Shown: one piece after another, positions 14,141 to 50,815 of the stretch
Numbering within the stretch: the stretch's first letter is position 1
Layout of the letters: each line of letters begins with the position of its first letter
Origin: Psammoneis japonica
Taxonomy: Eukaryota
Assembly: GCA_008632985.1 (NCBI GenBank)
Contig: QPGO01000021.1
Span: 682,001 to 746,000 of the forward strand
Direction of reading: 5' to 3'
Length of the DNA stretch: 64,000 nt
The notes under the pieces: model-generated
What the model saw: the letters and a program-made list of their open reading frames with translations, nothing else
What the model was told of the DNA's origin: nothing
Databases searched by the model: none
Position numbers and translations under genes: made by a program

Positions 14141-14249
14141 CAATTTTTCCGTGCACGCCTGCTCTGCGGTCCAAATCATTTCGGTTGTTGGCAACTTGTT
14201 GTGATCCTGTCAATGCAGTTTTGCTGTGGGAGTGTCAACAAATGCCGTG

Positions 14250-15700: not shown

Positions 15701-16223
15701 GCAATGTGTTCACCCTGCTCAAATTCTTTCTGCATGTGTCCACAGCAGATCTTCCTCTTGACATCTTCGCATGTCATGTTGGGTGCATCACTGTTCAGGG
15801 TTGAAGAATGGAACTTTATCTCATGCATTGTTCATGGCTTTTCACTTGTTTTCTGCAGTCCCCTGCTGCTTGTGGTGCAAGTGTGAATGGCCTTGTGGAC
15901 TTCCACTGAATCTGTGTGCACTCAACAAGTGCCAGCACCTCTTTGAAGTGAATGCCAAAAATGTGTCCAGTCAAACACCGAATTCTTTGCATGCAAGCTC
16001 TTGAGATTGGTGCAATCGTTGTGTTTCTCGCATCATCGATGGAAAAGGGCAAGTTGGACAACGGGCACGGGCGACGGAGCGACGACCATGATGAGAAATG
16101 ATGATTTGCTGACGTGGAAGCACGACTCGCATTCCTCTTCTGCATCCGCCATCCACAACGTCAGTGCGTGGCAGCGAAGCGAGGAGAAGTGGTCACTTTT
16201 CGTCCAGATAGATTGAGAGAAGG

Positions 16224-32072: not shown

Positions 32073-33180
32073 ATATTGCATGAAAAGTGGTTTCTTCGGT
32101 GCAGTCCGAAATGCTATGCTTCTGGGTTCGAGAATTTGGCTTCGGGGATTCGAAAAGTGGAGCAATCCTTTGTTTGCTGCATGCATCAAAAAATTTGTGG
32201 ACGTGTCCTATTACAGGATACGTACACCTGCTGTAGAAAAGACGCACATGTCAGAGTATTTTGATAAAAGCAATCTGTCCATATTGCCCTTATTTTCTCC
32301 CTGTTCGTTTTCGAGGTTCTCGGGCGGGCTCGCGGGCTACTGAAACGCAAAATTTGCGAATCGCAAATTAATTTATAAAAACAAATAGCTCGAATTTTTT
32401 CACGATGAAAGCACGTGCGAGGTCTCTGAGTGCTTCATTTTTCGCTTCAAATGAGCAAATGCTACTGTTTCGACAACCGAAGGTCTGTAAGTGACATGAA
32501 ATAACAAACCAATCAGATTATTGTCATTATGAAGAGCTGTGTGACGTTTTGTTTGTGAGGAAAGGCGGTGTAATCATCCAAAAAGGTCATTTTTTGTTGA
32601 AATCTTGCGATGCGTTGGCATGAGTTGCTGTCACGAGAAGGCAATTTCCTTTGAAAATAAGGATTTCTTGTCATTTCTCGTGCATCATGTCTTTTCTTAA
32701 TCGAAGTAGAAAGAACGCCTGCACCTTGAATTGCACCAGAGGATGTTGGCCGCGTCGCAAAGACGATCTTGGAGGGTGACAAGGGTTGTTTCTCGACTCG
32801 CCACGCGATGATTGTGCGGGGATTCGGAATTTGTCGCAAATTTTGCGATGTCGCAAATTTTGCGATTCGGTAGCGGGGTGGGGGCCGGGTCTTCCCGGTG
32901 TTTTTCATCGTTGGTTGAATGAATCGAAAAACGTTGTTGTCGGTGGCAGTGATTGCTGAAAACTGGGGAGACCACTTTAGCACAAATGTCGCATTCAATC
33001 AAGGCAGCTGGAGGAGGAAAGAACTTGCGCTTTTCTGCTCTCACAAAATCACACACAGAAGCCAGAGAGGCTGTGCATCTGCCTTTTGTCTGACACTTCT
33101 CAAGGAGACATCGAACGATGCAATCTTCAGTGTGCATCTTGGACAGCTGGGGCATTGGCACAGAACACCTTCCCAACAAA

Positions 33181-36100
33181 TGTCAGACCTGACAGAAATT
33201 GAAGGCAAATGGCAAGAATTCAAACAACAACTCCTTGCTGCTGTCTAAACAGCAGATGAGTCTCCACTCAGAGACTGTTGCAGGAGCCGAAAGACGTGTG
33301 AGTCGGTGTGATCGGGCTGCTGTTGTCATTCTTGTGAGCCTTGTGGCTCGAAAGCAAACTGCATCGCGCATGAATGCACGGAACTAAAGCACACAAAACT
33401 GTGTGCGGCAAACTAAACAGCGCGCGACACTTCGCGCGCATCCAAATCCTGTTCAAATCCTGTCACTCCCCAGTTTGCTTGAGGAGCCACAGAAACAGAT
33501 TCGACTTCGGATGGAATGAAGTTCCAGAACATGAGGGGGCGGAGAAGGTCCCAGATTTGGGAGTGACCCCAATGCTTGCTGAGAATGTCAGCAGGGTTGC
33601 GGGAGCCTTCGATGAAGTGGAACTCAAGGCAACCAGAGGCAATTGCCTCACGCACACGGTGGAACGACAGTGCGGTGTGTCGCTTGTGTAACTTGGAGTG
33701 CGGGATGGTGGCACTGTCTACAACCGACTTGTTGTCACCGAACATGTAACCAACATTACGGGTCGGGACGCCAAGGCAGCGCAGGGTGATGCGCAGGTCG
33801 ACAATCTGCTCGACACAATTCCTTGCGGCAACAAATTCAGATCCGCAGGTTGCAGTCTCCACGGTGGCTTGTTTCTTGGAGAACCAATCAGCCGGGAATT
33901 TGTTGAGGAAGTGGAGCATTCCCATGACAGAGCGCCCGGTGAGCATGCAATGGCACAAGTTTGCATCGACGTAGTGGGTGGCAGTGACGAACTTGCCAAG
34001 GGGTGGTGGAGCGTCCTTCGGGATCATCTCTTCCGCTTCACCATACACGGAATGCATCCATTCATGGGCCGGAGCAGGGAGATCCGAACAGTCGGGCTCT
34101 TCCGTGCGAACGCGGAGAGCACCGTGTCGCATCTTGGAGAGGCACCCACAGACGCGTTTGGCACGATCCAAATGGCCTTGGCGGGGCGCAGCTCGGAAGC
34201 TAGAGAGTGACATGACAGCCGTGGTAATGTCAATTCGACCAAGGGACACTGCCCATTGGAGTGAACCAACAAGAGACTGGAACTTGTGAATGCCATCGGA
34301 TCCCAGCAGTTCGGAAGTGTCCAGTTCGGGGTGGTCACCCTTCTCTAGAGGTGACAGGGCGTTGGTGGCAGGTTTCTCCCCAAACAGTCGGGCGTAGCTG
34401 TCGACCATGCGCTCGATGTACTTGCGCGGAGACAGGCACAAGGTTCCGTCGGGGTCCCGGGAAAAGTCGCAACCCAGATGGAACTCAATGGGTCCCGCAC
34501 CCTTGAGCTTGAACTTGCACTTTTCCGTGAGAGTGTCGACGAAAGATTGAGGGTCCTTCATGGCAATGGCGAGGTCATCCACATAAACTGCAATGCATTC
34601 ACAGTGGTCGCCGTTCCTGCGCATCCAAATGTCGGGTTCGGCGCGGCAGGGGAAGAAACCTTCAGCTCGCAGGCAGTCGGCGAAGCGCTCGTGCCAGCGG
34701 AGACCGGAGCTGCGCAGTCCACACAGTGCCTTGTGGATGACAAGGATGTGTCCTTCGAGTTTGCCAAATTCGGGTCCAGCTACAATGCAAAGCTTCTCCT
34801 TGGTGGTGGCTTCAAGGCAGGCATTGCCAATGTCGGTGGCCCATGTCTCCAGCTCGTTGAGTTCGGCCAGGAAAATCATCAGCCGAAGGCCACGGAGGGA
34901 GACTGCTCCGGAGCAGACACTGTCGACAGGTGCGTCCGTGAGGTGCCCGTCGGCTACGAGTCGTGCCTTGTGGCGACCGTCGTGTTTCACGTCGTGCACC
35001 AGGTGCACTCGGTGCATGAGCGCCAGCAGCCATGTGTGGGCGGGCGAACCAAAACGGTCCATGACAGTGTTCGCCATGCGCTTCATGGTCTGGTGTCGAC
35101 GTTCGGCAAAGTTTTGGTGTTGCTGGTGAGGCTCACTTTGCCAGCGGAGACCGGAGCTGCGCAGTCCATGCAGTGCCTTGTGGATGACAAGGATGTGTCC
35201 TTCGAGTTTGCCAAATTCGGGTCCAGCCACAATGTAAAGCTTCTCCTTGGTGGTGGCTTCAAGGTGGGCATTGCCAATGTCGGTGGCCCATGTCTCCAGC
35301 TCGTTGAGTTCGGCCAGGAAAATCATCAGCCGAAGGCCACGGAGGGAGACTGCTCCGGAGTAGACACTGTCGACAGGCATGTCCGTGAGGTGCCCGTCGG
35401 CTACGAGTCGTGCCTTGTGGCGACCGTCGTGTTTCACGTCGTGCACCAGGTGCACTCGGATCTTCTTGTGTCCCGCAGGAGGAGTGGAAGACTTGAAGGG
35501 CCCGCAGTCATGGAAGACTTCGTATTCGTCGAGTTGGTCCATCTCGAGATTAGTTGCGTCTCCCCACTTGCGGTTGCCGTTGCGTTCGTCCAGTGACATG
35601 GCGTGTTTGTAGTTCCGGGGAACTTCGCATCCGCACTTGTAGCGAGGTGCAGTGTGGAAGGAGCGAAGCTTGGCTTGGTTGGCCATGCGAAATGGCTTCT
35701 TTTGGCGCCTCGCGACAGTGCGGAACCACTTCCAGCCATCCGTGTCGAGGAGTCCGTTCTCTCGTGCATAGATGGCACAGGTGACGGGGTCGTCCTTGGC
35801 AATGATGACAAGAGGCTCGGACGTGATCTCCCCACTTTCCCATTCAAGCATGATGTTGTAGCTTGAGCCTTTCCAGGTTGGGTCGTGAGGCTTCAGAGGT
35901 CCTTCGTGTGATGCGATGCGTCGAAATTTCCAAATGGTGGTGTCTTCGTCTTCTTGCTCAATGTGATTCATGATGTCATTGCAGGCAAGGACTTCCTCGT
36001 ATTCGTCATTGTTGACAGAGCAGACGAACTTAGTGAGCTCGGGATTGCCGTTCACTTTCCATTCGTGGTCTTCAACGGCCTTGACGATGCGAGCTCTGTG

Positions 36101-39100
36101 GCGTTGTCCGTCCTCTTGTGGCTGCATGAGGAAGGTGCGTCCAATGATGTCTTGCGGATCGAAAACTGGCATCTTGGGTGTCCTGATCTCCCCATCAGTA
36201 GAATCGACGGGGTTGTCGTCATGGCGAGATTTGATGATGGGTTCAGGTGGCTCCCCATCAGGAGGATCAAGACGCAGGTTTCGAACGGCAGGATCGGGGG
36301 CAGCGGAGCGAACGTTGGACCGGCAGAGGATCTTCTGAGTCTCGTCAGATAGGATCTTGAAGGTCATCTGGTGGCCGACGTGCTCAGCAATGCCAACAAA
36401 GCGTCCACGCAACTCACGGGATTCGGACGGCCAATCGGAGTCATCGAGGTGGAAGCACACTGGTTCCCACCAGTGAAAGCGAAGCAATGGGCTGATGTCC
36501 GGGGTGGATCCAGTGAGAGTCTCGAGGGGCATGCGCCAGTGGAGACGTGGGGACGCTGTGTGGTTGAGCATGAAGCACACGTGCATGAGCACCAGCAGCC
36601 ATGTGTGGGCGGGCGAACCAAAACGGTCCATGACAGTGTTCGCCATGCGCTTCACGGTCTGGTGTCGACGTTCGGCAAAGTTTTGGTGTTGCTGGTGAGG
36701 CTCACTTTGCCAGCTGGAGATGAAGAGGGCGCGTAGGATCCCGAGCACTTTGTTGCTGATCTCAACTTGAGCACGGTCGCTAATGAGTTTGGATGGGGCA
36801 CCACGTTCACGGATCTGATCCTCGAGTGTGTTGACAAACTCTTTGTCCGTCTTGGTGCCGCAGACGTCAGTGACGGTAGACTCGGTGCCAACAAACAGTT
36901 GGGCGCTGGTGCAACCAGAGTCGACGGCCGGGGTGTCGGCACAAACGGTGTCAGTGGCGACAGGCTCGTTGCGGCGGTGCACATTAAGGGCGGGGTTGGG
37001 TGATTTGCAGGCCTTGCGAAGGTGTGTACCGGCGGGCATGCGGGCGCACTGCGTGGTGCAGTCAAAAGTACGACGGACCGCATCGGCAGGTAGGAAGCCA
37101 AAGCAAGGCCGAAGAGACTCGAAGGGGGGGTCCTTGGGCTTTACAGTGCGCTCCGGAGGTGGAACGTCATCGCCCTTGGGGTCAATCGCATGCAGATGAC
37201 ACTCGTAGAACACGTCGTCGTTCGGAATGAGGTGATCATCGAGGGCGGACGCGTGATCGGCAGACAAGGAAGCAGACAAGATGGTCTCGTTGACAACGAC
37301 ACGGTGACGGCAGTTGCCGCATTCGTCAAACAGGTTGGCAGTGGGATCGTCCTGCAGGTCAGAGATCGCGTCGCACCACTGGTCGTCGTCAGTGACAGAG
37401 TGATCGAGGACGGAAGGGTCCCATGTGTCATCACCGGAGGATGACATGGGGCAGGGTGTCCCATTCGGCGTCAGTGCAAGGTCGCATGGCAACACAAGGC
37501 AGGCCAGCCTTGATGTCAATGGGGATGACACAGCCATCAGGAGTGGCAATGCGTTGCAAGCCGTTGGGCACCTTGACAGAGCGATCGTTGACATCCTGTT
37601 TGCACCATTCGAGCTGGCCGCAGGAATGGATGGTCTTGCCCTTTCCCGTGCATGCGCACTGATGGAGGATGGCGATGACGGGACCACGCTGGGTCTCAAT
37701 GACGGCACCAGCGGTGACAATGGGGATGTCCACCAATTGATGATCGTCAATGCCCTGAACGTCGACTTGGCGAGAGGTGCGTGCAATGACGCGAACGTCG
37801 TCGCCAGCAATGCCGCCGTTGGCCCCACGATCGACTAGAGTGCCCGTGCGTGTGGAGCGATGAGCAGAGGCAGAGCAAATGACATTGTGGTTGTCAACNN
37901 NNNNNNNNNNNNNNNNNNNNNNNNNNNNNNNNNNNNNNNNNNNNNNNNNNNNNNNNNNNNNNNNNNNNNNNNNNNNNNNNNNNNNNNNNNNNNNNNNNNN
38001 NNNNNNNNNNNNNNNNNNNNNNNNNNNNNNNNNNNNNNNNNNNNNNNNNNNNNNNNNNNNNNNNNNNNNNNNNNNNNNNNNNNNNNNNNNNNNNNNNNNN
38101 NNNNNNNNNNNNNNNNNNNNNNNNNNNNNNNNNNNNNNNNNNNNNNNNNNNNNNNNNNNNNNNNNNNNNNNNNNNNNNNNNNNNNNNNNNNNNNNNNNNN
38201 NNNNNNNNNNNNNNNNNNNNNNNNNNNNNNNNNNNNNNNNNNNNNNNNNNNNNNNNNNNNNNNNNNNNNNNNNNNNNNNNNNNNNNNNNNNNNNNNNNNN
38301 NNNNNNNNNNNNNNNNNNNNNNNNNNNNNNNNNNNNNNNNNNNNNNNNNNNNNNNNNNNNNNNNNNNNNNNNNNNNNNNNNNNNNNNNNNNNNNNNNNNN
38401 NNNNNNNNNNNNNNNNNNNNNNNNNNNNNNNNNNNNNNNNNNNNNNNNNNNNNNNNNNNNNNNNNNNNNNNNNNNNNNNNNNNNNNNNNNNNNNGAACAA
38501 AGAGGAGTCGTTGGCAACGTCAAGACCCTTGTGTGCTTTGACAATGTACAGGCCAACTGGTGCTGCTAACATGTTCTTATAGCCACGGGGCAAAGGGATT
38601 GCATTGGTGCCATTGTCGCACTCAAGCGAGTCGATTTGGGACGGTGTGAACGTGAACAGTTCCTGGTGCGAGTCCGTGCCGTCTTGGGCCAAAGCCAAAT
38701 GAAGAGGACTCCCAGCACCTTGAGCAAGCACGGTTCCAACAACGTGCTCGAAACCATCGGTTTGTTGCTGACGAGTGAGAACCATGGCAGACAAAAGTGG
38801 TGTCAGGACAATCAATTCTGGTTGGGAAGCGAAGGCAGACTCGAAAACTTGGATGAGAACAGACTTGACTTGAAACAGACTTGACTTGAAATCTTGAACT
38901 ATCTTAAAATCAGAAGTCGCCGGGCTTTGTCATCCCGTTCGTTGTCAAGTGCTAAACTTCCTGTCCGGTCCGCAGAGTTGTGCCGGCACGTCCGAACCCG
39001 CAGCTGGCGGCACTTTGGGTTGCTTGCGAGCGGAGCAGCGGGTTGTAAACCCCTGCAGGTGAGCTGACTAGAGGTGGACAAGACCCCCGAACCGTTCTTA

Positions 39101-40001
39101 TTTTACATCGGTTGGATTTCCCGATCAGGCTGGCCAGTTGACGCAGGCGTCAGGCGCTGTGGATGAACGAACAAACGTGGGAAAGCACCCTCGCCCCAAC
39201 GCAGGCTGCAATCATGGCCACTTGCTCTCACAGTCGTCCTCGTGGACCTAGCAGAACTGTAGAGCACCAGTAGTCCGGGGTAGATCAGGTACAATGGACT
39301 CGGTGTGCTTGTAGAGTGGCAGCAAAACCGCAGTCCGAAGAGTGGGTACAGGTTCTTGGCCGTGAAGATATGTATATATATATATGTCTTCAGCAACGAA
39401 GATCCTTGAATATGTAGGGTTCTTGACCGTTAACCGATGAATAGGTATATCAAGGGATGAGGATCAAGGATAGACTTGGATATGACCGTTGAATGTATGT
39501 CTTCAGCGATAAAAGGTAGTATAATCAATCCAGATATCCAGCGGTAAGGAGACTTGACGGTGACGTTAACTTCCTGCCGATGCCCTGGTATTGAATGCGC
39601 GTAGACTTGCCGATGTATGTAGAATATATACGGAGGTCCACGTAGAATTGAAATAGCGTCGTTGGTAAATCAACGACGACGATGGCGGTTGCTCAATGGG
39701 TTGACAATGAGCAAGACTGTTAATCTGACAGAAAATGAAGGCAAATGGCAAGAATTCAAACAATAACTCCTTACTGCTGTCTAAATAGCAGATGAGTCTC
39801 CGCTCAGAGACCGTTGCAGGAGCCGAAAGACGTGCAAGTCGGTGTGATCGGGCCACTGTTGTCATTCTTGTGAGCCTTGTGGCTCGAAAGCAAACTACAT
39901 CGCGCGTGAACGCGCGGAACTAAAGCACACAAAACTGTGCGTGGTAAACTAAACAGCGCGCGACACTTCGCGCGCATCCAAATCCTGTTCAAATCCTGTC
40001 A
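33181..40001 (-). mobile_element. Ty1/Copia (diatom CoDi-like) LTR retrotransposon, mutated, spanning an assembly gap
   Basis: ~285-bp LTRs at 33181-33465 and 39718-40001; PPT GGGGAG; gag from ~38785; protease ALVDRGANGG; integrase DRAQVE..NFAERR; RT KARLVADG, YVDD; RNase H NPADILSK; frameshift at ~37435. No matching TSD seen. Confidence 0.92.
37899..38494. other. Assembly gap (596 N)
   Basis: Run of N. Confidence 1.
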
Positions 40002-41190
40002 TGTCTGATCACTGAATCTTGTTCAAACTCTGTCACTCCCCAACTTTCTGATGATGCAATGGGCAGGCCCCAATTGCCTGCATTCTCGAGATGCTCAGCA
40101 GGCAAGTCTCGAGACTGCTGCCAATCTGACAGAAATCCATGAAGACTTCTTGGGGGACGTTTCAGATGACCACCAACAATTGAGGACTGCTCATTTGTTG
40201 GCACTGTTTGCCATGCAGTGTTGTGCCTGTCGCTCTCATGTCGGCTGGCAAGCAGAACTCTGGCCCGGACCCTTTTCACCGGCTTCGCTGAAGGCCCTCA
40301 ATGAAGGGGATGAGACGTCTGCTCGGGACATGCACACTGGTCCAACCAGGTTGAAGTGCCTGGACTTGTGCCCATCATGCGCACCCCATGCACGGGTGAC
40401 ATGGAAACACGCAGAACATTGCATGCTTGGGTGGGACTCGAACCCACGACCCTCCTTGCCAAGGTGGAACACCTGGGCCATCTGGGTCATGCACTCATTT
40501 GTCTTTTCAGGCCCACTGCATTGAAGAAAGCAGATCATCTGATCACTGAATCCTTGGATTCCCAGGCAATTCAACCTGGTTAGACCGGCGTGTGTGTCCC
40601 GAGTGGACGTCTCATCCCCTTCGTTGAGGGCCTTCAGCGAAGCCGGTGAAAAGGGTCCGAGCCAGAGTTCCGCTTGCCAGCCAACATGAGAGCAACAGGC
40701 ATGACACTGCGTGGCAAACAGCACCAACAAATGAGCAGTCCTCAATTGTTGGTGGTCATCCAAAATGTCCCCTGACAAGTCTTCACAGATTTCTGTCAGA
40801 TTGGCAGTCTCAAGACTTGCCTGCTGAGTCTCTCGAGAATGCAGGCGATTGGCGCCTGCCCACTGCATTATCAGAAAGTTGGGGCATGACAGAATTTGAA
40901 CAAGATTCAGTGATCAGACAATCTGCTTTCTTCAATGCAGCGGGCCTGAAAAGACAAATGAATGTGCAATCTAGATGGTCCAGGTGTTCCGCCGTGGCAA
41001 GGAGGGTCGTGGGTTCGAGTCCCACCCAAGCACCGCAATGTTCGGCGTGTTTCTGTGTCACCCGCGCATGGGACGTGCATGATGGGCTCAAGTCCAGGCA
41101 CTTCAACCTGGTTAGACTGGCGCACATGTCCCAAGCGGATGTCTCGTCCCCTTCGTTGAGGGCCTTCAGCGAAGCCGGTGGAAAGGGTCT
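40002..41190. mobile_element. TRIM-like miniature LTR element (LTR ~450 bp, internal ~80 bp) in inverted and tandem arrangement, with a tRNA-like segment in the LTR
   Basis: 40002-40355 is the reverse complement of 40570-40920, and 40355-40545 of 40921-41100; LTR termini and PPT match the neighbouring Copia; T-arm GTGGG-TTCGAGT-CCCAC at 41009-41025. Confidence 0.7.
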
Positions 41191-41192
41191 GA

Positions 41193-42805
41193 CGGGTTCC
41201 AGTCCCAGGTGGGACTCCGTGTGACATTGGGCCCGCAGAATTCTGCGTGCGAGCTCTGCAGTGCGAGAATTTGATCAATGGATGTGTTTGTCTTCAACAT
41301 CAAACAAACGGCCAAGTTTGTGGTGCAATTGTGCCTCTTGCCACTCAATGTTTTTGCAAATGCGCCTGCCCTGCGCGATTCTTAAGACATCATAGAATCG
41401 CGCTGTGGCAAAAAATGTCAAAAGTTGTTGGAAGGATCGCTCAACAAGTGCACCGTAAAATGGCACAAAATGTTGAAAAAATCACGTAGAAATCTACGTG
41501 CGCGACATGCGACGTGATTCAAAAAACTGTCGATGTCACAGTTCAGTGGTGCGAGGGCGGTCCCACCTGGCAGACCTGGAATGCGTCGTCTGGGCCAGAG
41601 CTCTGCTTGCCAGCCGACACAAGAGCAACAGGTGTGATGCTGCGCAGCAAATGGCGCCAACAAACAAGTGGTCCTCAACCATTGGCGGTCATCCGAAATG
41701 TCCCCTGAGAAGTTTTCACAGATTTCTGTCATTCATCATCATCACTCTCCTCATCATCCTCGTCATCGTCGCTCTCACCCCCGTCTTTTCTTTCATCGCT
41801 TTCATCCTGAAGCCATTTGCGAACTGCTTGTGGCATTCATCGTGCAGATGTCATTGGCGGGCCTTCTCATGACAATTTCAGGTCAGGACGGGTTCCAGTC
41901 CCAGGTGGGACTCCGTGTGACATTGGGCCCGTAGAATTCCACGTGCGAGCTCCGCAGTGCGAGAATTTAATTGATGGATGCAACATCAAACAAACGGCCA
42001 AGTTTGTGGTGCAATTGTGCCTCTTGCAACTCGACGTTTTTGCAAATGTGCCTGCCCTGCGCGATTCTTAAGACATGTAGAATCGCGCTGCAACAAAAAA
42101 TGTCAAAAGTTGTTGGACGGATCGCTCAATGAGTGTGCCGTAAAATGACACAAAATGTCGAAAAAATCACGTAGAAATCTACATGCGCGACATGCGACGT
42201 GATTCAAAAAACTGTTGATGTCACAGTTCAGCAGCACGAGGTCCCACCCAGACCTGGAACGCATCCCCAGTTCTTTTTCCAGAACTTGCAAAATTGTGCC
42301 CAGGAGCTTGTTGGTTTGTCTTCTCCTTCGACTGGCTCCGTCTTGAGAAACTTTCCTTTGCAGTTCAATTTGAGGGTCCAACCATTTTTCTTGTCCGCAG
42401 ACGTGTTCCAGATGCACCGACAGGTGGGAATCCATGTGACGTTGGGCCAGTGGAATTCTGGGAGCGAGCTCCACAGCAAAGTCATCAGGCAATTTATGTG
42501 TCAATGATCGCCAACAGAAAATGAGGCAATTTTGCGAATGCACAAACTCGCCTGTGATTAAAGCACATCATTTTCCACTTGGCCAGGTGCGTTCTTCAGA
42601 AATTGAAGAATGAACCTGGTGTGTTTGTGTTCCCATGCACAACTTCTTTGAACAAAATGTCTGGGGTTTTGCAAAACAGCAAGTGTGGAACAATTTTTTG
42701 GAAGATCGCATGCAGAAATGTGTGCGCGAAACATGCAACGGATGACAAAAAGCAATTGTGTCACATGCCAGTGCTGCGAGCTCCCACCTGCTGGGCCTGG
42801 AACGC
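41193..42805. mobile_element. Three ~370-400-bp MITE-like elements (41193-41585, 41889-42262, 42402-42805)
   Basis: Imperfect TIRs GTTCCAG..CAGGTGGGA / TCCCACC..CTGGAA; the first two are highly similar direct copies. Confidence 0.65.
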
Positions 42806-42999
42806 ATCCGCATCGTTTGTGCAATCCACTCTTTTTCACGGTGGGAGGTGAGTTCTCAAGCCGACACCTGTCTCTTCTCCAACCAGTCTCGTTGCACATG
42901 GCACAGAAAGTTCCTTTGTGTCATCAAAACATGCGTGAAGCACTGCACACATTTCGGGTGCAAGAAGCATCTTGTTTGCATTCTGCCCAGTCTTCCCTT

Positions 43000-45570
43000 T
43001 GAGACCATGTTTTGGAAAGATGTTGCTCTTTCCCTGCTCATTTTTCATGAGCTCCAATTTGCACAGAAGCCACATGCTGGTTTCTGTGCATTTGCACAGA
43101 TTTTGCACCAGCCGCATTGCAGGGCGGGGGTGTTGTTCACCGGCCCCAATGAACTCTTTCTCTGACAAAATGAATCTCTTGATGGACTCCTCACATGGTC
43201 TCCCAAGCTCTGCACAGACAGTGTCACAATCGGCCCGGGAACCAATCCCTCCAAATCAAAGGTTGACCTGATGCCTTGCATGGACAAGAGCAAAGCCAGT
43301 TCCATCATCAAGCACTGCCCTCAGAAATGTCCTCCCACCAACAAAGGCCATCTTCTTCTAAAACGTAACACACAAAATGCCGCAGCCGGCAAGTGTTGCA
43401 AGTTGGTGACTGACCAGGGTTGCGGCATTTTTGAGTGCTGTTGTCACAAAGTTTGCAAGCCAAAGTGCTCAAAATCCAAGCCATTGAAGAAAACAAAAAA
43501 GAGTTTGGGAATGAACTCTTTACAAACTGCCAAACGTCAGGCAATTGGCACTGTGGGTCAATGCACAATGACAAGAAGCTCAGCCGAGGTTGCACCATGC
43601 AGAGTGACGGCAAGTGTGCCACAACAACTCTGCCCATTCACAAAGAGCACTGATGTCAGTTTTGCTTCATGATCAAGTTCCACAATTTTGGCAATCTGGA
43701 AGATGGGTGCTTCCACCTGCTGTGCGGTCATGGTTGTGGCACCCACACTTTTCACACATGCCCAGGCAGTGGTGATCATGTGACGCAGTCTCTGTCTCAG
43801 TTGTCTGGAGAGACACTGGATCTGGAGTGATTTGTTGTTTGATGCATCACATGATCAATGAAATCGTCACCCAATCTCAGGTCCAGCGCCTTCAGTCAAG
43901 ACTGCAGTCTTCTGTCTCTGCCATCAAGTCATCCTTCTCTGACAAGTTGCTCAGGTGCATTTGTGTGACAGGCATCAATCACTGTCCTTCACAGCCTTGC
44001 ATCACTTGGTTGATTCTCAGTTTGTGAAGCATTGCAAGGGCCGTCCTCCAAAGGGCAGCTGCCATCCATGTTGGAGATCAGAAATGATCTCGCTGTGAAC
44101 GTGGAACCCACTGTCAACAACTGTGTTGCAGATGCTGATGACTGCATGCCTGCCTTGACCGGCTGGTCCTCTGGGGATGACTCTGATGATGACAACAATG
44201 ATGATGCGGAAAACAATCTGCAGCACACGCAAGGCTTCATTGAGTCAGATGTTGCAACAGGCCAGGTGGTCTCATCCAAGGTGGTGCATTTTGGTCCACA
44301 TCAGCCGGGTGCAACAAAGCATCAAGCCACATGATGAGAACAATTGCCTCTTTCATTTGCGTTGTTGCGTGAGGCACCGCGACGAGTGCACTGGGACTCC
44401 CAGGGAAGGCATGGACAAAGCTGCAAAGAAAAGCAGTGCAGCATCAAGACCCAACATGAACATGGACACATCCGCCAAAGCCATGGAGAATCAATCACAA
44501 ATGAAGAAACATGAAACCAAAATGAAGAGAGCACGTGACTTGTGCGCATCAAATTTGTGGGTGAAGACTGGCCTTGAAGGCAAGGTTGTGAACCTTGTGG
44601 AGCAACTCACAAAAACACAAGTCCTGCAGTCTGTCAACTGCTGCATTGCCCAAACTGGTCCATCAGAGTGCTTGTTTCTTTGCAAAGGGGTTTTGGTGAT
44701 GCAAGTTTACCCAGAACATGTGATGTCCTTCCACGTTTCCATCATTTACGTCATGTGACCAAGACACCCAACAGTCATCTCATTTGTGATTGTGGATGCC
44801 ATCATCACCATGGCATTCTGTGTCACCACACCATTGCCACATCTGGTGCTCCTTCTCTCCATGACATGTCTGTTGGGTGGCAAAAAGAACACCAGTGCTT
44901 GGCTCATGAGGACGGGTGCAAAGACATGACAGATCTGTTTGAAAGATGCACAGACAGCGAGACCTCCATGCAAGGTTGCAACAATGACACCCTGCCATCA
45001 CAATGTCCTGAGCTGAACAACCTCTGTCATGCAGACTGTTTGGCTTTGGAGTCATTCAACGAAGCAAAAAACTCACCTGTGCCACTTTGCTTCAATCACC
45101 CCATTTCCACATGTGATGGCAAGCCATCCAGCAATGAAGATGGCATGATCATGACCCAGGAAACATTGACTCAAGATTGGGGTGACAACAATGATGATGA
45201 CCAACTTGGAGACTCAACTCTCATGCTCAACATGTGTCACCGTGACCTCAAAAACCTTGCAAATGGGGAACCAGAGCTGTGCTCCATTGCACAGAATGCC
45301 ACAATTGAAGCCACTGGCAGGTGCAAACACAAAGTCATTGAATTAAATCCCAATCACTCGTCTGCAATGCAGAACTTGGAAACAGTCTCATCTGCAGTGG
45401 GAGTGTCAACTCATCTACAATCGAAGCGATGCAAAACCCGCAGTTGGAGGCAAGAGCCAATCACACATCCAAATCACTTTTGCAAAACTGGGAGTTTCTT
45501 TTCCTTTTCCACACACCACATGCACAACCAATCATTCACCTGCACATCCACCAACCGGTGGGTGTCATAG
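43000..45570 (+). mobile_element. Decayed SWIM-domain (MULE/Mutator-like) transposase remnant
   Basis: HLICDCGCHHHHGILCHH matches SWIM CxCx(n)CxH with Y->C/H changes; lies between TIR-bearing modules; no intact ORF. Confidence 0.45.
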
Positions 45571-46867
45571 AACCAGGAGCTCCTTTTCAGTCTCTGCAAA
45601 GACAGAACACAGCCAATTGTTCACAACAACGTCTGCAGACACTTTGACATCACTGGACTCGAGTCAGGTGCACCCACTGGAGTGAACAAAGCTCTCAACA
45701 CATTCACCAGAAGCTTGTCCTGATGGGAATTCAGCATCTTTTTCAAATCAGCTGGGTCCATGCACACACCAAAGCAAGGGATCTGATGCAGATTGGATCC
45801 CGAACGGTGACATCACAGTCATCGGTCCACACGCGACACATGGCGACACCGCCCTTCATCACCAAGGACACAAGAGCATTGGTGTGAAAGCACAGGTTGA
45901 AGAAACGTCCATCAGTTGATGATGAGTGACTCTGATGGATCTTGCACATCAAGTTCTCATCACAGCAACACTTCCACCCCAGTCCTGACATGAATTGCCA
46001 CCTTCAAATGCTTCAGCATCTGCTGTGTTGAGACGGAGGCCGGCACCTTGCACCCATCATGCAGAGCCATTGGATTGGTTTCGACTTGTCCACAAACACC
46101 TCTGTTGAGCTGCACATGGGAAAGGTGCCAACTGGGGTGTGAGATCCAAGCATGTGCATCACTCCAAGATCACCAACTTGATCAAACTCCTTCGCAATGA
46201 CAGGAGCCAACGTTGTGCAAGCCTCTTTCTTCGATGCAGCTGACTTGGAGACTTGGTTGTTGGTGGGACAGGGCATGGATGCTGCCAACAATCACATGCA
46301 TGAAGAATGGCATTCAAGCCATTTTGGAATCTTTGGTTTCTTGTGCTGGTTGCAGCAACGTTGTGGTGCCAAAGGCAATCCAGTGCTCCGCACTTTGTTG
46401 TCAATGGCCTCCATCAAATGCAGGATGAGAGAGCTGAGGCTGAAACCATGATGGCGAGCCTTGCTCAACTTTGGTTCCTGCAGCGTGCAGTGGATGGCTG
46501 CACAGAAATGATGCGTGGTGTTGGGAAAGCATCCTTGCGATTGTGCGAGTGAAATTTTCTTGGGCTGGGTCAAGCTCAGCTTTTTGTCAAGCTTCAACAC
46601 ATGAGAGGAAGCAGATGCAGTGAAGCCACTGAGATCAAAATTGCACTGCACCTTGGTGCAATCAAAGCCAGGGACACAATCCACAGCAACTCCCTGGGCA
46701 AGGTGTTTGTGATCCAGGTGACATTGCAACTCATCGGACTCGAAATGCTTCTCGCACCATGATTGGCATGTTGCTGATGTTGGTGCACTTTGGAGTCAGC
46801 CGAGAAAAGACTCAGGCGACCAAAACCCAAACAAACAAGATGCTTCCACTTGCCATTGAGCTTCAGA

Positions 46868-47263
46868 TGTGTTCCAGCTCCAGGTGGGACCTCACACTGC
46901 TGCGCTGCAACATCAACAGTTTTTTGGATCGTGTCGCATGTCGCACATGTACATTTCTACATGTGACATTCCACAAAATTGTTTCATGCTCCCCATTTTG
47001 CGAAGCCAAAGGCTTTCTGTTTTCAACATTTGTGAGAATGAAAATGTGCTGGGCATTTTCTTCAATGTCTGTAGAATGTGCCCGGGCAAACTGTCAATGA
47101 TGTGCTTCAAGTGTGAAGGAGGGACACATTTGCAAAATTGCTTCTTTTTCTGTTGGCGATCATTTGCACTTTTTCATCACTTAAAACAAATTTGCTGCGG
47201 AGCTCGCACACAGAATTCTGCCGGCCCAATGTCACACAGAGTCCCACCTGGGACTGGAACCCA
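46868..47263 (-). mobile_element. Fourth MITE-like copy, inverted relative to those at 41.2-42.8 kb
   Basis: Ends GAGTCCCACCTGGGACTGGAACCC, the reverse complement of the 41889 start. Confidence 0.65.
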
Positions 47264-50200
47264 TCTTCACTGGTCCAGACAGAGACGCAGTCAATGCATG
47301 ATTTTTTGCTGGGAGGGATCAAAGAAGTTGGGATTGTGTTTGTCGGCATGTGTCAAAAGGGGGGCATCTTCATCGGTGATGCCAAAGTGACCAGCAGGAA
47401 AAATGCCACCAGGAAACAATTCTCTTGCACAGAGACCATCGGATGGGATGCGTTCTTGTGAGAAAATGCCGACTCTCCATCGGGAACAAATTTGCAATTT
47501 CATGACTTTGCACAATCAGACAATGTTTTTGTCATCGCTTCTGAACAGTGGGGTGACAAGTGTGTGGCTCAACCATCCACGCAAAAGGAATCTACCGCCA
47601 TTGCACCCATGAGTGTGGCAATGTCAGTTTTCACCAATTTCAAAGAGACAGGCTTGGAAGCCTCTTTTCCATCATTGTCTGGGGCAGCCCTGTCAGTTGC
47701 AACTGCTGATGCACCAGAAAATGGCATGGAGTGGTGACCGGCAATCATGGAATCCATGCCGGCCTTCTTTCCAACTGGGGACACCACATGATCCAAAGAT
47801 GATGCAACTGCAGACCTCTTCCTTGGCAACAATTAAAAGTCAGACTCTCTGGCTGCAGGGCTGTCCATTGCAGCAAGCACCAAATCAACACCAGCACCCA
47901 AATCAAGCAGACCACCACCCCACAAGCCATCATCGGCATGGACCTTCAACGACTCTCCAGTTGGCACCGGATCCACTGAGACATCTTGCACAAGTGAAAC
48001 TTGGGGGAAACCACCAAAGAGGGATGAAGAGAAGGAGAGCAGGAAGAAGAAAGCTTCTTCACAACCAAAGCAGCAGAACATTCCAACTGACATGACATGG
48101 TGGTGACAACAACACAAAAATCCGGTCTGTGACACAGCAGCAAAGATGCAACAGTGTCATGAGCAAATGAACAAAGTGACGCTGGAAAAAAGGAGAGAGC
48201 ACTTGCTGATGCAGCACTCACTTAAATGCCGGGAGCAGCATTGTCACTGCAAAGCCAGGCCAGTCGTTGAGCATCAAACAAGGACAGAACACAAACAGAA
48301 AGCAAAGTGAGAAAATGGGAGGCAACGGGTGCACAAGCAGCAGCAAGCACAAAGCAAAACAAAAAAGAACACTTGTGGCAGTGTGAGTGTCATTGTGGGA
48401 GGGACCAACATGAGCACATTAAGAGCTGAGCAACATGCCGTGGAACAAGTGTTGCAGCAGCAAAGGGAAAAAAGGATTCATTGTCACATTGCATTTTGTG
48501 AAATTCTGAACGGCATTGTTGAGAGAACAAAATTTGAAAAACAACAGTTGGAAAGGTGTTGTGTTTCTAAATGTGAGTGATGAACATTGTGGTGCTCTCA
48601 TGCACACAGATGTTGCAATGAAAAAGACATCAGAAGCTCCATCAGACAGAAATGCACAGGGTGAGAGAAGGTCGGGCAGGGCAAACCTGACTCACCAACA
48701 TGGGGGACATTGCACAGGTGCAGATGGGATTTGTTTCATGATGGCTGGCACATGACTGCCAGCTTGGTGGAGCTGTCACAACGAAACTTGTGAAAACCGA
48801 TTCTGAAGAATCCGGGCGCTGATTCTGAAGAATCGGATTTCTGTTGTTGAACGCCAAATTTGAGCTCAACGTGCATGCTCAGTGGACAATTCACAAGTTC
48901 TGCCATCCTGTTTTCTTGAGAGTTGAAGTTTGATTCTTGAGAATGGCTGTTGCTGATTTTTAAGAAAACTGCTCATGTGTGACGCATCTACAAATTTGAC
49001 ATTGCAACGTCTGTCAATGAAAATGAACAATTGGCAATTTGAGCACAATCAATTTTTGCACCGACTTCAAAATTGTGAAGGACAATGGTGGCTTCAGTGC
49101 AAAGAAGCAACATCAATCAAGACATTGTGATGAACATTGCAGCCTTGTGCAACAGAGCATGGCTTGCATCACTTGTGAGAGTCTTTCTGTGCTTTGGAAG
49201 CTGTTTCGGAGTCGAAAATGCTGTCAAAAACACTCTTGCTCGATGTTGTTGTTGTGCTCTTTCAACCAAAAAAAGCAATGAAGAAGTCAATTCTTCTCAA
49301 ATTGTTTGATTCATTGACATGTGAGCTGTTGACACACAACACATGGTTGATGGTTGGGGCTGTTGATTGACTTCTCGTCGACAATGATCGCCATTTTGTC
49401 TGTAGATTCATGTGACAGATTTTTCACAAGAGTTCCATTTTCACAAGATTCCAATTGGTGGCACAAGGTCCAATTCTCAAGAATGGATTTTCACAAGATT
49501 CCATGCAGGATTCTGTGGAATCTGGAATCGTCGCAACAGAGCCAAATTTCGTGCCACAAAGCGGGCGCTTGTTTCAAAGTCAGCACACAAGGAGGTGGTG
49601 GCCAAGCCAGATCTCTAAAACACATCAATGACCATGTGAACTAACCCAGATGCAGCAGATTCAACAGTGTTGTTTGCGTGCTCAGTTTCTTTTAGAGCAG
49701 GGAGTCAAAAAAAGGCACAAAATGAGGTTGCAAGAACTTCGCACTTTTTGAAAGGGGAGAAGCCACCAAACAAAATCATTCACAACAAGCCTGTCTGTTT
49801 GCACTGAAAAAGTTGAACAACAACCACAGACAAAAAATGCCATGGCGACAATGGCTTTTTTTGCCACAAGGCAGAAATTTGGTGCTCGTGTGGGCGGTCA
49901 TTGTCGTTGCTGTGTTGGGAGGGTGCTTGCTTCTCTTGTCTGCTGTTTTGTCATGGTTTTCCCTGCCATGCTGGTGCTGGAGCTTTTGACAAAATCTCAT
50001 GGAGTGCTCCAAGCCAGTGACATCCACTTTTGTGTGGCAGCAATGACTCCAGAGTGTTTGGTTCATGCTCCCCCCCCCCATGTTTTCACTGACCCATCTC
50101 CTGGCTCACAAAAAAGTGCTCTTGTTCTCATCTCTGGTGGCAAGTGGTCTCTCCAGGCAGCTCATTGCAGCTCTTTTCAGCTTTGTTGCTCCTCTGAGTT

Positions 50201-50815
50201 TGCCTCCCTTTTGGCATCCTCTGGTTTGTCTCGAGTCTCCACTCTGAGTCTCTTGGCACGGGTCTTCGTGACCATCAGGTTAGAACCGCCAACATCAAGC
50301 ATGTTGGCCTCGGCATGTCAGTTCAAAATTCAAACATCCATGACGTGATATTTTAAAAACGGCAGTATTCCGTTGAATATTTTACATACAATATAAATAT
50401 TTTTATATTCTTCAGTTGTACAGTACTACTGGACGTACGTATTACAATACGTATTTATTCGCAGGACACATACACACTGCAAAAATTTGTCGTTGGTCAT
50501 TTTTGGTCTACTGTACAGTACGGTAGTCCATTCCTCGGTCCTCGGCAAGTGGCAAGTCCTCGGTCATCTCTCATCAACGCGATCAGCAAAGCATCGGCAT
50601 CAGATGCTGTTGCATTGCCTTTGTCCTTGCTTTTGACAACACCTCTCATCACCTACCCGGCGGCGTTCAGGCCATCAAATCACAATCAGAATCATCGGTT
50701 GTTTTCGCAATTGTGGCTTGTCCCTACTCACCAGTCGCTCAAAGTATCGTTCCTTGAAGCATCGGCGTTTCGGTCACACAGCATACGTAGTATATTGTGA
50801 AAAAGTCAGAAGAAG

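What the first reader, a model, noticed from the sequence alone, without database searches (positions are those of the whole stretch)
33181..40001. TpA->TpG/CpA (A-to-G) hypermutation of transposons, a RIP-like process of opposite polarity
Seen: the two Copia LTRs differ almost entirely by transitions at two dinucleotides. TpA changes include caATAa>caACAa, tTACt>tTGCt, aATAg>aACAg, cTACa>cTGCa and gGTAa>gGCAa; CpG changes include cCGc>cCAc and aCGc>aTGc. Conserved Tyr in pol is systematically Cys or His (ETATCGSEF, HWGHSQ, KALCG). Established: CpG loss follows 5mC deamination, and fungal RIP is C->T and creates TpA. Neither removes TpA. Inference: an adenine-directed mutator (a DNA adenosine deaminase or decay of a modified adenine) acts on silenced repeats as a genome-defence system. 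I do not know of a prior description, but cannot exclude one.
Basis: partly seen in the sequence, partly recalled or inferred. Interest (0 to 1): 0.93.

Follow-up and report, generated by a model that had tools for sequence, protein, structure and literature searches.

The report
TpA hypermutation of diatom repeats
In this piece of a diatom genome, transposon-derived repeats have had nearly every TA, and many CG, turned into TG or CA, the footprint of a targeted DNA-mutating process that I found reported only once before, in an unrelated alga.

Summary
The host is a diatom. The two Copia LTRs differ at 17 positions, 16 of them transitions, nearly all at CG or TA. Against 45 homologous polyproteins, conserved Tyr is kept at 11 of 31 columns (13 Cys, 5 His); every other residue is kept at 82% or more. 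This fixes the direction as TpA to TpG/CpA.

About 27 kb of the window lies in sharply bounded blocks with TpA observed/expected (O/E) 0.07, CpG 0.48 and CpA/TpG 1.66. The other dinucleotides are unchanged. A LINE-like element carries the same mark. Genes and 11.9 kb of non-ORF DNA between the blocks are normal, so this is not a genome-wide bias.

Contigs built from a sequencing run reproduce the TA-free sequence. Three metagenome Copia loci from other records show the same Tyr-to-Cys/His loss.

A 2026 preprint measured TpA-only A:T>G:C hypermutation of integrated viral DNA in Bigelowiella natans. I read this as the same kind of process in a diatom, acting on retrotransposons alongside slower CpG decay. 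The enzyme, perhaps a DNA adenine deaminase, is untested.

The parts
33189..33465 (-). 3' LTR of a minus-strand Copia-type element, the mutated copy. It keeps 3 TA where the other LTR has 8.
33413..37834 (-). Stop-to-stop ORF of 1473 aa holding integrase, reverse transcriptase (RVT_2) and RNase H. TpA O/E is 0.18 and CpG O/E 0.91.
34692..35438 (-). Internal RT duplication (34692-34991 and 35139-35438). The two copies differ only at 6 ancestral TA sites (9 events) and 1 CpG. An integrase fragment (35012-35145, a copy of 36581-36714) lies between them.
37899..38494 (.). Assembly gap (596 N) inside the element. The two sides may come from different copies of a very high-copy family.
38900..39724 (-). 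Leader / 5' untranslated part of the element with normal TA density (O/E 0.77-0.92). It is an unexplained island between mutated DNA on both sides.
39725..40001 (-). 5' LTR, the less mutated copy (8 TA; it keeps 6 of the 7 CpG that differ).
32707..38900 (.). TA-poor tract covering the Copia body, the 3' LTR and about 480 bp of left flank. The flank is itself repeated DNA.
1..1397 (.). Hypermutated block: TpA O/E 0.00, CpG 0.04-0.19, CpA/TpG about 2.
5359..7806 (.). Hypermutated block. It holds a roughly 200-bp copy of host-like sequence (the other copy is at 16363-16663) that has lost its CG and TA.
13985..16209 (.). Hypermutated block: TpA O/E 0.03-0.07.
39950..50281 (.). Hypermutated block of unknown repeats. 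Local direct and inverted repeats at 40.0-42.3 kb differ mainly by CG/TA conversions and TG<>CA doubles.
52417..64000 (.). Hypermutated block.
56260..61784 (-). LINE-like retroelement inside the last block. It matches residues 3-1873 of proteins of about 1800-1900 aa, with several frame changes. Conserved Tyr is kept at 1 of 10 columns (5 Cys, 3 His, 1 Ser).

Best explanation
Shown: in this diatom, repeated DNA carries a very strong, strictly dinucleotide-specific transition mutation. The affected repeats include a very high-copy Copia family, a LINE-like element and unclassified repeats. 5'-TpA-3' becomes TpG or CpA (A:T>G:C) on both strands about equally. A slower CpG>TpG/CpA decay accompanies it. 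Genes and non-ORF DNA between the repeats escape. Inferred: the changes arise in place on chromosomal DNA, not during reverse transcription. Inferred: it is the same kind of process as the TpA-only hypermutation measured in mutation-accumulation lines of Bigelowiella natans. Inferred, with about 0.4 confidence on its own: the chemistry is enzymatic deamination of adenine to hypoxanthine in a TpA context. That base is read as G at the next replication. The enzyme would be a nucleic-acid deaminase (ADAT2/TadA-like or another deaminase-fold protein) directed to silenced foreign or repeated chromatin. The CpG loss is ordinary 5-methylcytosine decay in the same methylated domains. Because TA>TG/CA never creates TAA or TAG, dead elements keep long open frames while losing conserved Tyr and Ile and some Leu and Val. 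GC content rises as TA is lost and falls back as CG is lost.
For: Direction and specificity. In the Copia, 24 of 49 replacements at conserved columns are single transitions at an ancestral TpA (17 A>G and 7 T>C on the sense strand). Only 3 are CpG transitions and 1 is any other transition. At the 53 conserved Lys and Asn columns (ApA-containing codons), the only replacements are 3 Lys>Arg, all multi-step, so none is a single A>G step. The LINE-like element keeps Tyr at 1 of 10 conserved columns (5 Cys, 3 His, 1 Ser). The 18 homologue controls show 12 Cys/His among 210 conserved Tyr.

Composition. Hypermutated blocks (26.9 kb) have CG 0.48, TA 0.07 and CA/TG 1.66. Normal DNA (27.5 kb) has 0.96, 0.59 and 1.18. 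The other seven symmetrised dinucleotides agree within 0.08. The O/E lost (0.52+0.48) matches the O/E gained (2x0.48).

In-place change. The two LTRs and the RT and integrase duplicates differ at 24 sites, 23 of them CG/TA conversions. Repeat pairs inside the blocks differ at 157 sites, 109 of them such conversions, including 47 TG<>CA doubles. Control pairs in normal DNA give 45 of 173, with 3 doubles. A host-like fragment copied into a block has lost its CG and TA.

Targeting. Host ORFs have TA O/E 0.48, 0.53 and 0.56 in the three codon phases. The 11.9 kb of non-ORF normal DNA has TA 0.66 and CG 1.04. Every laid bin from 40006 to 50000, inside a hypermutated block, has more than single-copy depth (109 or more against about 60).

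Both strands. Pooled Tyr>Cys against Tyr>His is 34 to 21 (p=0.10). There is no consistent sense-strand TG/CA skew.

Reality of the sequence. Single-copy-depth contigs of run X1 match TA-free stretches with 1-3 differences per 529-611 letters. Of 51 metagenome Copia loci, L030, L031 and L012 keep Tyr at 1 of 15, 2 of 14 and 10 of 23 conserved columns (7+6, 7+4 and 7+6 Cys+His). The other 48 loci show 4 such changes in all. L030 and L031 differ at 25 TA sites, 20 doubles, 8 CG sites, 14 other transitions and 12 transversions.

Precedent. In B. natans, 231 of 302 new single-nucleotide mutations fell in two integrated viral regions, at about 6e-7 per site per generation. All but one of them were A>G or T>C, and all of those GC-biased changes fell on TpA. 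The authors name an ADAT2-like candidate (abstract, Results and Discussion read).
Against: Nothing here shows that adenine rather than thymine is the base attacked. The window holds no candidate enzyme and no whole genome was available. No strand-coordinated runs of TG or CA were found (z -0.8 to +3.1), and the RT duplicates give only 4:1 and 2:2. So the processive single-strand action expected of many deaminases is not seen. About 1 kb of the same Copia (38900-39950: leader plus 5' LTR) has normal TA density although it is as highly repeated as the rest. Simple targeting by repeat or by element does not explain this. The second copy of the host-like fragment (16363-16663) is not mutated. The Copia lies across an N gap in a family of very high summed depth, so the LTR pair and the internal duplicates may be assembly mosaics of different copies. 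Run X1 may be the assembly's own source, so it is not independent. The main B. natans target was single-copy viral DNA, not repeats, and that preprint mentions no CpG effect.
Confidence: 0.62

Rival explanations
1. Thymine, not adenine, is the target. A TET/JBP-like oxygenase marks T at TpA in silenced DNA (5-hydroxymethyl- or 5-formyluracil, or a base-J-like mark). The oxidised base mispairs with G and gives T>C.
For: TpA is self-complementary, so sequence alone cannot tell A>G on one strand from T>C on the other. Thymine modification biased to TpA in other protists (dinoflagellate 5hmU, kinetoplastid base J) is recalled, not tested here. The listing shows only that 5hmU is discussed for dinoflagellates.
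Against: My search paired diatoms with 5-hydroxymethyluracil only in papers about dinoflagellates (listing only). 5hmU paired with A is not known to be strongly mutagenic (recalled). No enzyme was examined.
Confidence: 0.15
2. Collateral damage of repair. T:G mismatches from 5mC deamination in methylated repeats are fixed by long-patch, error-prone synthesis (polymerase-eta-like, WA>WG). CpG is restored but nearby TA is mutated.
For: TpA loss sits in the same blocks as CpG loss. In the Copia it runs ahead of CpG loss (Arg kept at 49 of 50 columns, Tyr at 11 of 31), as expected if CpG is repaired while neighbours are hit.
Against: The known WA signature includes ApA (recalled). Here none of the 53 conserved Lys/Asn columns shows a single A>G step, against 18 of 31 Tyr changed to Cys or His, and AA/TT O/E is unchanged. 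Other metagenome Copias show heavy CpG decay with Tyr largely kept and almost no Cys/His. In L047-L050 Arg is kept at 6/17, 4/12, 18/46 and 19/43 columns, Tyr at 64-81%, with 3 Tyr>Cys/His in all. So CpG decay alone does not bring TpA loss.
Confidence: 0.07
3. RNA-level A-to-I hyper-editing (ADAR-like, preferring a 5' U) of transposon transcripts, fixed when the edited RNA is reverse-transcribed and inserted.
For: Both classified targets are retroelements. In the window's Copia, sense-strand A>G outnumbers T>C 17 to 7.
Against: Pooled Tyr>Cys against Tyr>His is 34 to 21, not significant, and sense TG/CA skew is inconsistent. The two LTRs of one element differ at TA sites. Neighbouring repeat copies diverge by TG<>CA doubles. 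A host-like fragment and unclassified non-coding blocks are also hit. In B. natans the changes arose in resident DNA during vegetative growth.
Confidence: 0.05
4. A genome-wide mutational bias against TA and CG that shows only where selection is absent, such as dead repeats.
For: The blocks are non-functional DNA. Normal DNA here also has a lowish TpA O/E of 0.59.
Against: Weakly constrained positions in host ORFs (codon phases 2-3 and 3-1: TA 0.53 and 0.56) and 11.9 kb of non-ORF DNA between genes (TA 0.66, CG 1.04) are not depleted. Block borders are sharp. The RT duplicates show 9 TA events and no change outside CG/TA in about 320 bp.
Confidence: 0.03
5. Artefact of base-calling, polishing or assembly.
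For: The element spans an N gap and has an odd in-frame internal rearrangement. Run X1 may be the assembly's own data, and its library type is not on record.
Against: Contigs built by a different pipeline from the run's reads reproduce the TA-free sequence at single-copy depth. The effect is confined to sharply bounded blocks. Three metagenome contigs from other records carry the same signature. The same spectrum was seen de novo in Illumina-sequenced lines of another alga.
Confidence: 0.02

Closest known systems
TpA-specific hypermutation of integrated viral DNA in Bigelowiella natans (Mettrop et al., bioRxiv 2026, doi 10.64898/2026.01.13.699255)
   Same: The signature is identical: almost only A>G/T>C, only at TpA, giving TpG/CpA. 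[quoted passage not shown] TpA-depleted, CpA+TpG-enriched clusters and coding sequences there are enriched for reverse-transcriptase and DDE domains. The authors interpret it as a defence against foreign DNA, with an ADAT2-like deaminase proposed.
   Different: That host is a rhizarian, this one a stramenopile. The targets measured there were a single-copy giant-virus insertion and a virophage, with TpA O/E only down to 0.45. Here the targets are a very high-copy Copia, a LINE-like element and other repeats, down to 0.00-0.07. CpG decay accompanies it here, and the preprint's main text holds no 'CpG', 'diatom', 'stramenopile' or 'retrotransposon'. There the rate was measured in real time. Here only the accumulated footprint is seen.
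Fungal repeat-induced point mutation (RIP)
   Same: Point-mutational inactivation confined to repeated DNA, with sharply bounded tracts, only transitions and a strong dinucleotide signature. Diatoms carry RID-related DNMT4 genes of unknown function (Hoguin et al. 2023, PMC9998398, passages read).
   Different: RIP is C:G>T:A, mostly at CpA, and creates TpA and stop codons while lowering GC (recalled; also stated in the abstract of PMC2621366 listed). Here TpA is destroyed, no TAA or TAG arises, and GC rises in the Copia body (0.57 against 0.48).
5-methylcytosine deamination decay of CpG in methylated transposons
   Same: It explains the CpG>TpG/CpA half of the pattern (CpG O/E 0.48 in blocks, 0.96 outside). 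Other metagenome Copias show it too.
   Different: It cannot remove TpA. Other metagenome Copias have CpG decay with almost no Tyr>Cys/His, so the two processes are separable.
APOBEC3 (C>U on cDNA) and ADAR (A>I on dsRNA) editing of retroelements in animals
   Same: Deaminase-driven hypermutation of selfish elements. ADAR prefers a 5' U (as cited in the preprint's Discussion).
   Different: Those act during replication or on RNA, are strand-biased and have looser context. Here both strands are hit, the context is strict, and copies diverge after insertion.
Polymerase-eta phase of immunoglobulin somatic hypermutation (WA>WG)
   Same: A natural, targeted A:T>G:C mutation process in DNA with TA as a hotspot (recalled).
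   Different: WA includes AA. Here AA is untouched.

Membership tests
TpA-specific regional hypermutation (B. natans type) | Mutations are almost only A>G/T>C transitions | tested here: met
   24 of 28 polarised transitions in the Copia are A>G/T>C. Tyr>Cys/His accounts for 8 of 9 lost conserved Tyr in the LINE-like element.
TpA-specific regional hypermutation (B. natans type) | Every such change lies in a TpA dinucleotide, giving TpG or CpA | tested here: met
   All 24 have an ancestral TpA. Only TA and CG fall and only CA/TG rises. ApA codons are untouched.
TpA-specific regional hypermutation (B. natans type) | [quoted passage not shown] | tested here: met
   Sharp blocks. Host ORFs and non-ORF normal DNA are not depleted. 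Blocks hold a Copia, a LINE-like element and other repeats.
TpA-specific regional hypermutation (B. natans type) | Arises de novo in resident DNA at about 1000 times the background rate, sporadically among lines | not testable with these tools
   Only a footprint is available. The indirect hint is 9 TA events, 1 CpG event and no other change in about 320 bp between the RT duplicates.
Fungal RIP | C:G>T:A transitions, preferentially CpA>TpA, so TpA rises | tested here: not met
   TpA O/E falls to 0.07 and CpA/TpG rises to 1.66.
Fungal RIP | Targets duplicated sequence and mutates both copies | tested here: inconclusive
   The laid block DNA (40006-50000) has more than single-copy depth. However, one copy of a roughly 200-bp host-like duplicate is unmutated, and a high-copy leader is unmutated.
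Fungal RIP | Depends on a RID/DNMT4-type methyltransferase and acts before meiosis | not testable with these tools
   No genome is held. Diatom DNMT4 function is unknown.
5mC-driven CpG decay | CpG>TpG/CpA in methylated repeats, with no effect on TpA | tested here: not met
   The CpG part is present (0.48 against 0.96), but TpA is also lost, and lost faster.
ADAR/APOBEC editing fixed by retrotransposition | Changes on one strand only, acquired before insertion | tested here: not met
   Tyr>Cys 34 against Tyr>His 21. The LTRs and local repeat copies diverge at TA/CG.
Ty1/Copia LTR retrotransposon (the carrier element) | Two LTRs with TG..CA ends flanking an ORF ordered integrase then RT (RVT_2) | tested here: met
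   LTRs of 277 nt beginning TGACAG and ending CTGTCA. RVT_2 E=2.9e-36. Homologues match at 58-68% identity.
Ty1/Copia LTR retrotransposon (the carrier element) | Target-site duplication flanking the LTRs | tested here: not met
   The 5 bases outside the two LTRs differ in the alignment. The locus is nested in other repeats and spans an N gap.

The most novel reading that the evidence does not exclude
A single, ancient system shared across the SAR supergroup (stramenopiles and rhizarians at least) marks foreign or repeated DNA. It erases both self-complementary pyrimidine-purine steps with one dual-specificity deaminase. On a given strand C in CpG and A in TpA are both deaminated, and both yield TpG. 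Methylated heterochromatin is thus steadily rewritten into CA/TG-only sequence. It would be an adenine-and-cytosine counterpart of RIP that works without creating stop codons.
Probability: 0.15. Interest if true: 0.92.

Novelty: new member of a known kind. Interest (0 to 1): 0.72.

Why it matters
A targeted A:T>G:C mutator of DNA is almost unknown in nature. The only report I found is a 2026 preprint on one chlorarachniophyte. Finding the same TpA>TpG/CpA footprint in a diatom, driven almost to completion on retrotransposons, has three consequences.

First, the process is not a curiosity of one alga. It is probably widespread in the SAR lineages that dominate marine primary production.

Second, transposons, and not only integrated viruses, are targets.

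Third, it allows a comparative screen for the enzyme: genes shared by carriers of the signature and absent from diatoms whose Copias show CpG decay only.

It also matters for annotation. Such elements keep long open frames, lose Tyr, escape Pfam (0 significant hits for 69 ORFs) and can be mistaken for genes. If the enzyme is a natural DNA adenine deaminase with a tight TpA context, it would interest the base-editing field.

Tried and rejected
- Whole-genome search: no genome is held for this window.
- Earlier notes of this scan: none by place or by words.
- The PDB sequence search with the LHC gene did not identify the organism. The protein search did, to the level of diatom.
- Strand coordination: the runs test of CA/TG order found no clustering in any block (z -0.8 to +3.1). 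My first impression that the two RT duplicates were hit on opposite strands did not survive the base-level alignment (4:1 and 2:2).
- Flanking context. Surviving TA in the blocks are enriched for YTAR (61 of 121 against 164 of 1103 in normal DNA) and depleted for RTAY (8 of 121 against 333 of 1103). This fits a 3'-neighbour order T>C>G>A for the attacked A. But in copy pairs YTAR sites still mutate (14 mutated, 5 kept) and the test has no power. I report it only as a hint.
- Nature of the other blocks. Pfam on 69 ORFs of 110 aa or more gave nothing significant. My by-eye guess that 44.6-45.6 kb is a MULE/SWIM transposase is unsupported, with no homologue at E<=0.001. A possible terminal inverted repeat at 5513/7727 is weak (26 nt, 81%) and I saw no target duplication.
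- The first polarisation of the LINE-like ORF, on 483 aa only, had too few conserved Tyr (1 of 4 kept). It was redone over the whole element.
- An index bug (residues dropped by keeplength) was corrected. Only one search is used.
- RNA: no RNA holder was listed for the stretch, so nothing can be said on expression.
- Literature. Searches found no description of TpA loss in diatom repeats. One search failed on term syntax. The SPLASH preprint is irrelevant. Searches found only the B. natans preprint. Its supplementary tables could not be seen, because bioRxiv supplements are closed.


Full report
**What the element is.** Direct repeats of 277 nt at 33189-33465 and 39725-40001 (94% identical) flank a minus-strand, stop-to-stop ORF (33413-37834, 1473 aa). 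The ORF has an RVT_2 reverse transcriptase (E=2.9e-36). It matches 1316 polyproteins at E<=1e-30, the best at 58-68% identity. It is a Copia-type LTR retrotransposon. It is interrupted by 596 N (37899-38494). It carries an odd in-frame rearrangement: two RT copies with an integrase fragment between them. The 5 bases outside the two LTRs differ, so no target-site duplication is visible.

**The host.** It is a diatom. A light-harvesting protein gene (21804-22601, minus strand) has 4175 relatives, and the named ones among the best 120 are almost all diatoms, at up to 81% identity. Genes in the window are long uninterrupted ORFs. No whole genome is held.

**The observation.** The LTRs differ at 17 positions: 16 transitions and 1 transversion. 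By class these are 5 TA<>TG/CA, 7 CG<>TG/CA and 2 adjacent TG<>CA doubles. All 5 TA and 6 of the 7 CG are in the LTR at 39725-40001, so the other LTR is the more mutated one.

**Polarising the change.** I aligned 45 full-length homologues (the first 45 of the 83 hits of 1600 aa or more among the 120 listed). I looked at columns where at least 80% of them agree. Of 609 such columns the window keeps 560. Tyr is kept at only 11 of 31 columns (13 Cys, 5 His, 2 Phe). Every other residue is kept at 82-100% (Fisher p=9.5e-17).

Of the 49 replacements:
- 24 are one transition at an ancestral TpA (17 A>G and 7 T>C on the sense strand);
- 3 are CpG transitions;
- 1 is another transition;
- 11 are single transversions;
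- 10 need more than one step.

At the 53 conserved Lys and Asn columns the only replacements are 3 multi-step Lys>Arg, so none is a single A>G step. In leave-one-out controls the 45 homologues show Tyr>Cys/His at 9 of 1658 conserved Tyr (my sum of the table). So TpA is being destroyed, not created. An earlier version of this script had an indexing bug; only one search counts.

**It is much bigger than the Copia.** In 500-bp windows TpA O/E drops to 0.00-0.10 in sharply bounded blocks: 1-1397, 5359-7806, 13985-16209, 32707-38900, 39950-50281 and 52417-64000. TA-free runs reach 1397 bp. Pooled dinucleotide O/E values:

| DNA | Size | CG | TA | CA/TG |
|---|---|---|---|---|
| Five blocks outside the Copia | 26.9 kb | 0.48 | 0.07 | 1.66 |
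| Normal DNA | 27.5 kb | 0.96 | 0.59 | 1.18 |

The other seven symmetrised dinucleotides agree within 0.08. The O/E lost (0.52+0.48) equals the O/E gained (2x0.48). The whole compositional difference is therefore CG+TA>CA/TG.

In the Copia body TpA is 0.18 while CpG is still 0.91 and GC has risen to 0.57. The TpA process therefore runs ahead of CpG decay. ORFs in the blocks have 0-0.5% Tyr and raised Cys and His.

**A second element class.** Proteins of about 1800-1900 aa found with ORF 56771-58219 (2187 hits at E<=0.001; a weak zf-RVT match) align to the window from 61784 down to 56260 on the minus strand. The alignment has several frame changes. This is a LINE-like retroelement. At 306 columns conserved in at least 70% of 18 homologues, 238 are kept. 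Tyr is kept at 1 of 10 columns (5 Cys, 3 His, 1 Ser). Ile>Thr occurs 3 times and Leu>Pro 3 times. The controls show 12 Cys/His among 210 conserved Tyr.

**Not a genome-wide bias.** In ten host-type ORFs, TA O/E is 0.48, 0.53 and 0.56 for codon phases 1-2, 2-3 and 3-1. In 11.9 kb of non-ORF DNA within the normal parts, TA is 0.66 and CG 1.04. Weakly constrained DNA outside the blocks is spared.

**Change in place.** Pairs of repeats inside the window:

| Pairs compared | Differing sites | CG/TA conversions | TG<>CA doubles |
|---|---|---|---|
| Three Copia pairs (LTRs, RT, integrase) | 24 | 23 | 5 |
| Twelve pairs inside hypermutated blocks | 157 | 109 | 47 |
| Five control pairs in normal DNA | 173 | 45 | 3 |

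The block pairs split into 47 doubles, 53 CG and 9 TA sites, plus 28 other transitions and 20 transversions. The control pairs have 79 transversions. A TG<>CA double is what two independent hits on one ancestral CG or TA look like.

The two RT duplicates differ only at 6 ancestral TA sites (9 events) and 1 CpG over about 320 bp. A roughly 200-bp host-like fragment (16363-16663) has a copy inside the block at 5600-5900, and that copy has lost its CG and TA. One caution applies: in such a high-copy family the assembled element may be a mosaic of copies, and neighbouring repeats may be separate insertions.

**Strands and context.** Pooled over the window and three metagenome loci, Tyr>Cys (sense A>G) against Tyr>His (sense T>C) is 34 to 21 (p=0.10). 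Sense-strand TG minus CA is inconsistent among the mutated Copias (-0.09 to +0.30, against -0.02 to +0.27 in the others). A runs test found no strand-coherent tracts.

Surviving TA in the blocks are enriched for TTAA, CTAA/TTAG and CTAG, and almost lack ATA/TAT. This fits a 3'-neighbour order T>C>G>A for the attacked A. The pair data cannot confirm it.

**Is the sequence real?** One run (X1, Logan contigs, coded; possibly the assembly's own sample; library not on record) holds 81% of the sampled words of 28500-37898. I laid it on 30001-50000 at 80% likeness.
- Unique DNA has depth about 60.
- Contigs of that depth match TA-free stretches with 2, 3 and 1 differences over 529, 566 and 611 letters.
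- The Copia bins sum to 18,347-149,805. The tool warns that this is not a copy number, but the family is plainly very abundant.
- All bins from 40006 to 50000 exceed single-copy depth (109 or more).
- Differences from other copies fall at 1079 transition places against 332 transversion places.
- Of the 24 best-supported rows printed for the Copia (1384 further rows were not shown), 5 have TA in the window against CA/TG elsewhere and 3 are the reverse. Four rows are two doubles, 5 are CpG-type, 5 are other transitions and 2 are transversions.

So TA sites are polymorphic in both directions within the family.

**Independent occurrences.** A scan of metagenome contigs returned 51 related Copia loci. 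TpA O/E is 0.50-1.02 in 48 of them, but 0.13, 0.27 and 0.31 in L031, L030 and L012. At conserved columns these three keep Tyr at 2 of 14, 1 of 15 and 10 of 23 (7+4, 7+6 and 7+6 Cys+His). The other 48 loci have 4 such changes in all.

L030 and L031 are 94.5% identical copies of another family. They differ at 25 TA sites, 20 doubles, 8 CG sites, 14 other transitions and 12 transversions. Several loci show heavy CpG decay with almost no Tyr>Cys/His. In L047-L050 Arg is kept at 6/17 to 19/43 columns and Tyr at 64-81%, with 3 Tyr>Cys/His in all. CpG methylation decay alone therefore does not cause TpA loss.

**What is known.** Seven searches turned up nothing on TpA loss in diatom repeats. Hoguin et al. 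2023 (passages read) report RID-related DNMT4 genes in many diatoms, with unknown function.

A phrase search then found Mettrop et al., bioRxiv 2026 (abstract, Results and Discussion read). Their findings in 15 mutation-accumulation lines of Bigelowiella natans:
- 231 of 302 new single-nucleotide mutations lay in an integrated giant-virus region and a virophage region.
- The rate there was about 6e-7 per site per generation, against 3.5e-10 elsewhere.
- All but one were A>G or T>C, and all of those fell on TpA.
- The hypermutation appeared only in some lines.
- TpA-depleted coding sequences were enriched for reverse-transcriptase and DDE domains.
- The authors propose an ADAT2-like DNA adenine deaminase.

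The text has no 'diatom', 'stramenopile', 'CpG' or 'retrotransposon'. Its supplements could not be read.

**Verdict.** It is unproven on the chemistry and outdated on novelty.

I file this as a new member of a kind described only in that one 2026 preprint. It is the first case in a diatom, on retrotransposons, close to saturation, and joined with CpG decay. The most likely mechanism is enzymatic adenine deamination at TpA in silenced DNA, and that step is inference.

**Unexplained points.**
- About 1 kb of the same Copia (38900-39950) is spared.
- No strand-coherent tracts were found.
- It is unclear what directs the process to these blocks.

Noticed in passing
window 38900-39950: The leader and 5' LTR of the Copia keep a normal TA density (O/E 0.77-0.92, including a (TA)n run near 39373-39383). 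DNA on both sides is TA-poor, and this part is as abundant in the run as the rest of the element.
   Followed up: partly
window 34692-36714: The Copia ORF holds two RT copies with an integrase fragment between them, all in one open frame. This may be a template-switch product or a short-read assembly mosaic of a very high-copy family.
   Followed up: partly
window 2929-5016 (minus strand): A 695-aa ORF with SprT-like protease, SprT zinc ribbon and HMG-box domains. It contains three 150-bp tandem repeats at 3614-4066 (82-86% identical).
   Followed up: no
window 24625-26536 and 28377-30993: Two stretches of normal DNA share segments at 75-78% identity, probably a diverged tandem gene duplication. 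Their differences are mostly transversions and non-CG/TA transitions, and they served as my control.
   Followed up: partly
window 16212-17276 (plus strand) and 5600-5900: An ORF with a uridine-kinase/PRK-type domain. About 200 bp near its 5' part has a copy inside a hypermutated block, and only that copy has lost its CG and TA.
   Followed up: partly
window 54587-55795 (minus strand): A 403-aa open frame in a hypermutated block with a faint alpha/beta-hydrolase match (E=0.003, below the Pfam cut-off) and 0.2% Tyr. It may be a host-derived pseudogene caught in the block.
   Followed up: no
window 56000-64000: Strong AT skew (-0.16 to -0.32) across the LINE-like element and its surroundings.
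   Followed up: no
L013, L014, L036, L040, L047-L050: Metagenome Copia loci with CpG O/E 0.13-0.30 and TpA O/E 0.52-0.85. In these hosts CpG decay occurs without TpA hypermutation.
   Followed up: partly
window 40002-42300: A dense nest of direct and inverted repeats (units of about 100-250 nt, 78-96% identical). A second LTR-end-like motif lies just right of the Copia. Depth is very high from 40673 to 42673.
   Followed up: partly
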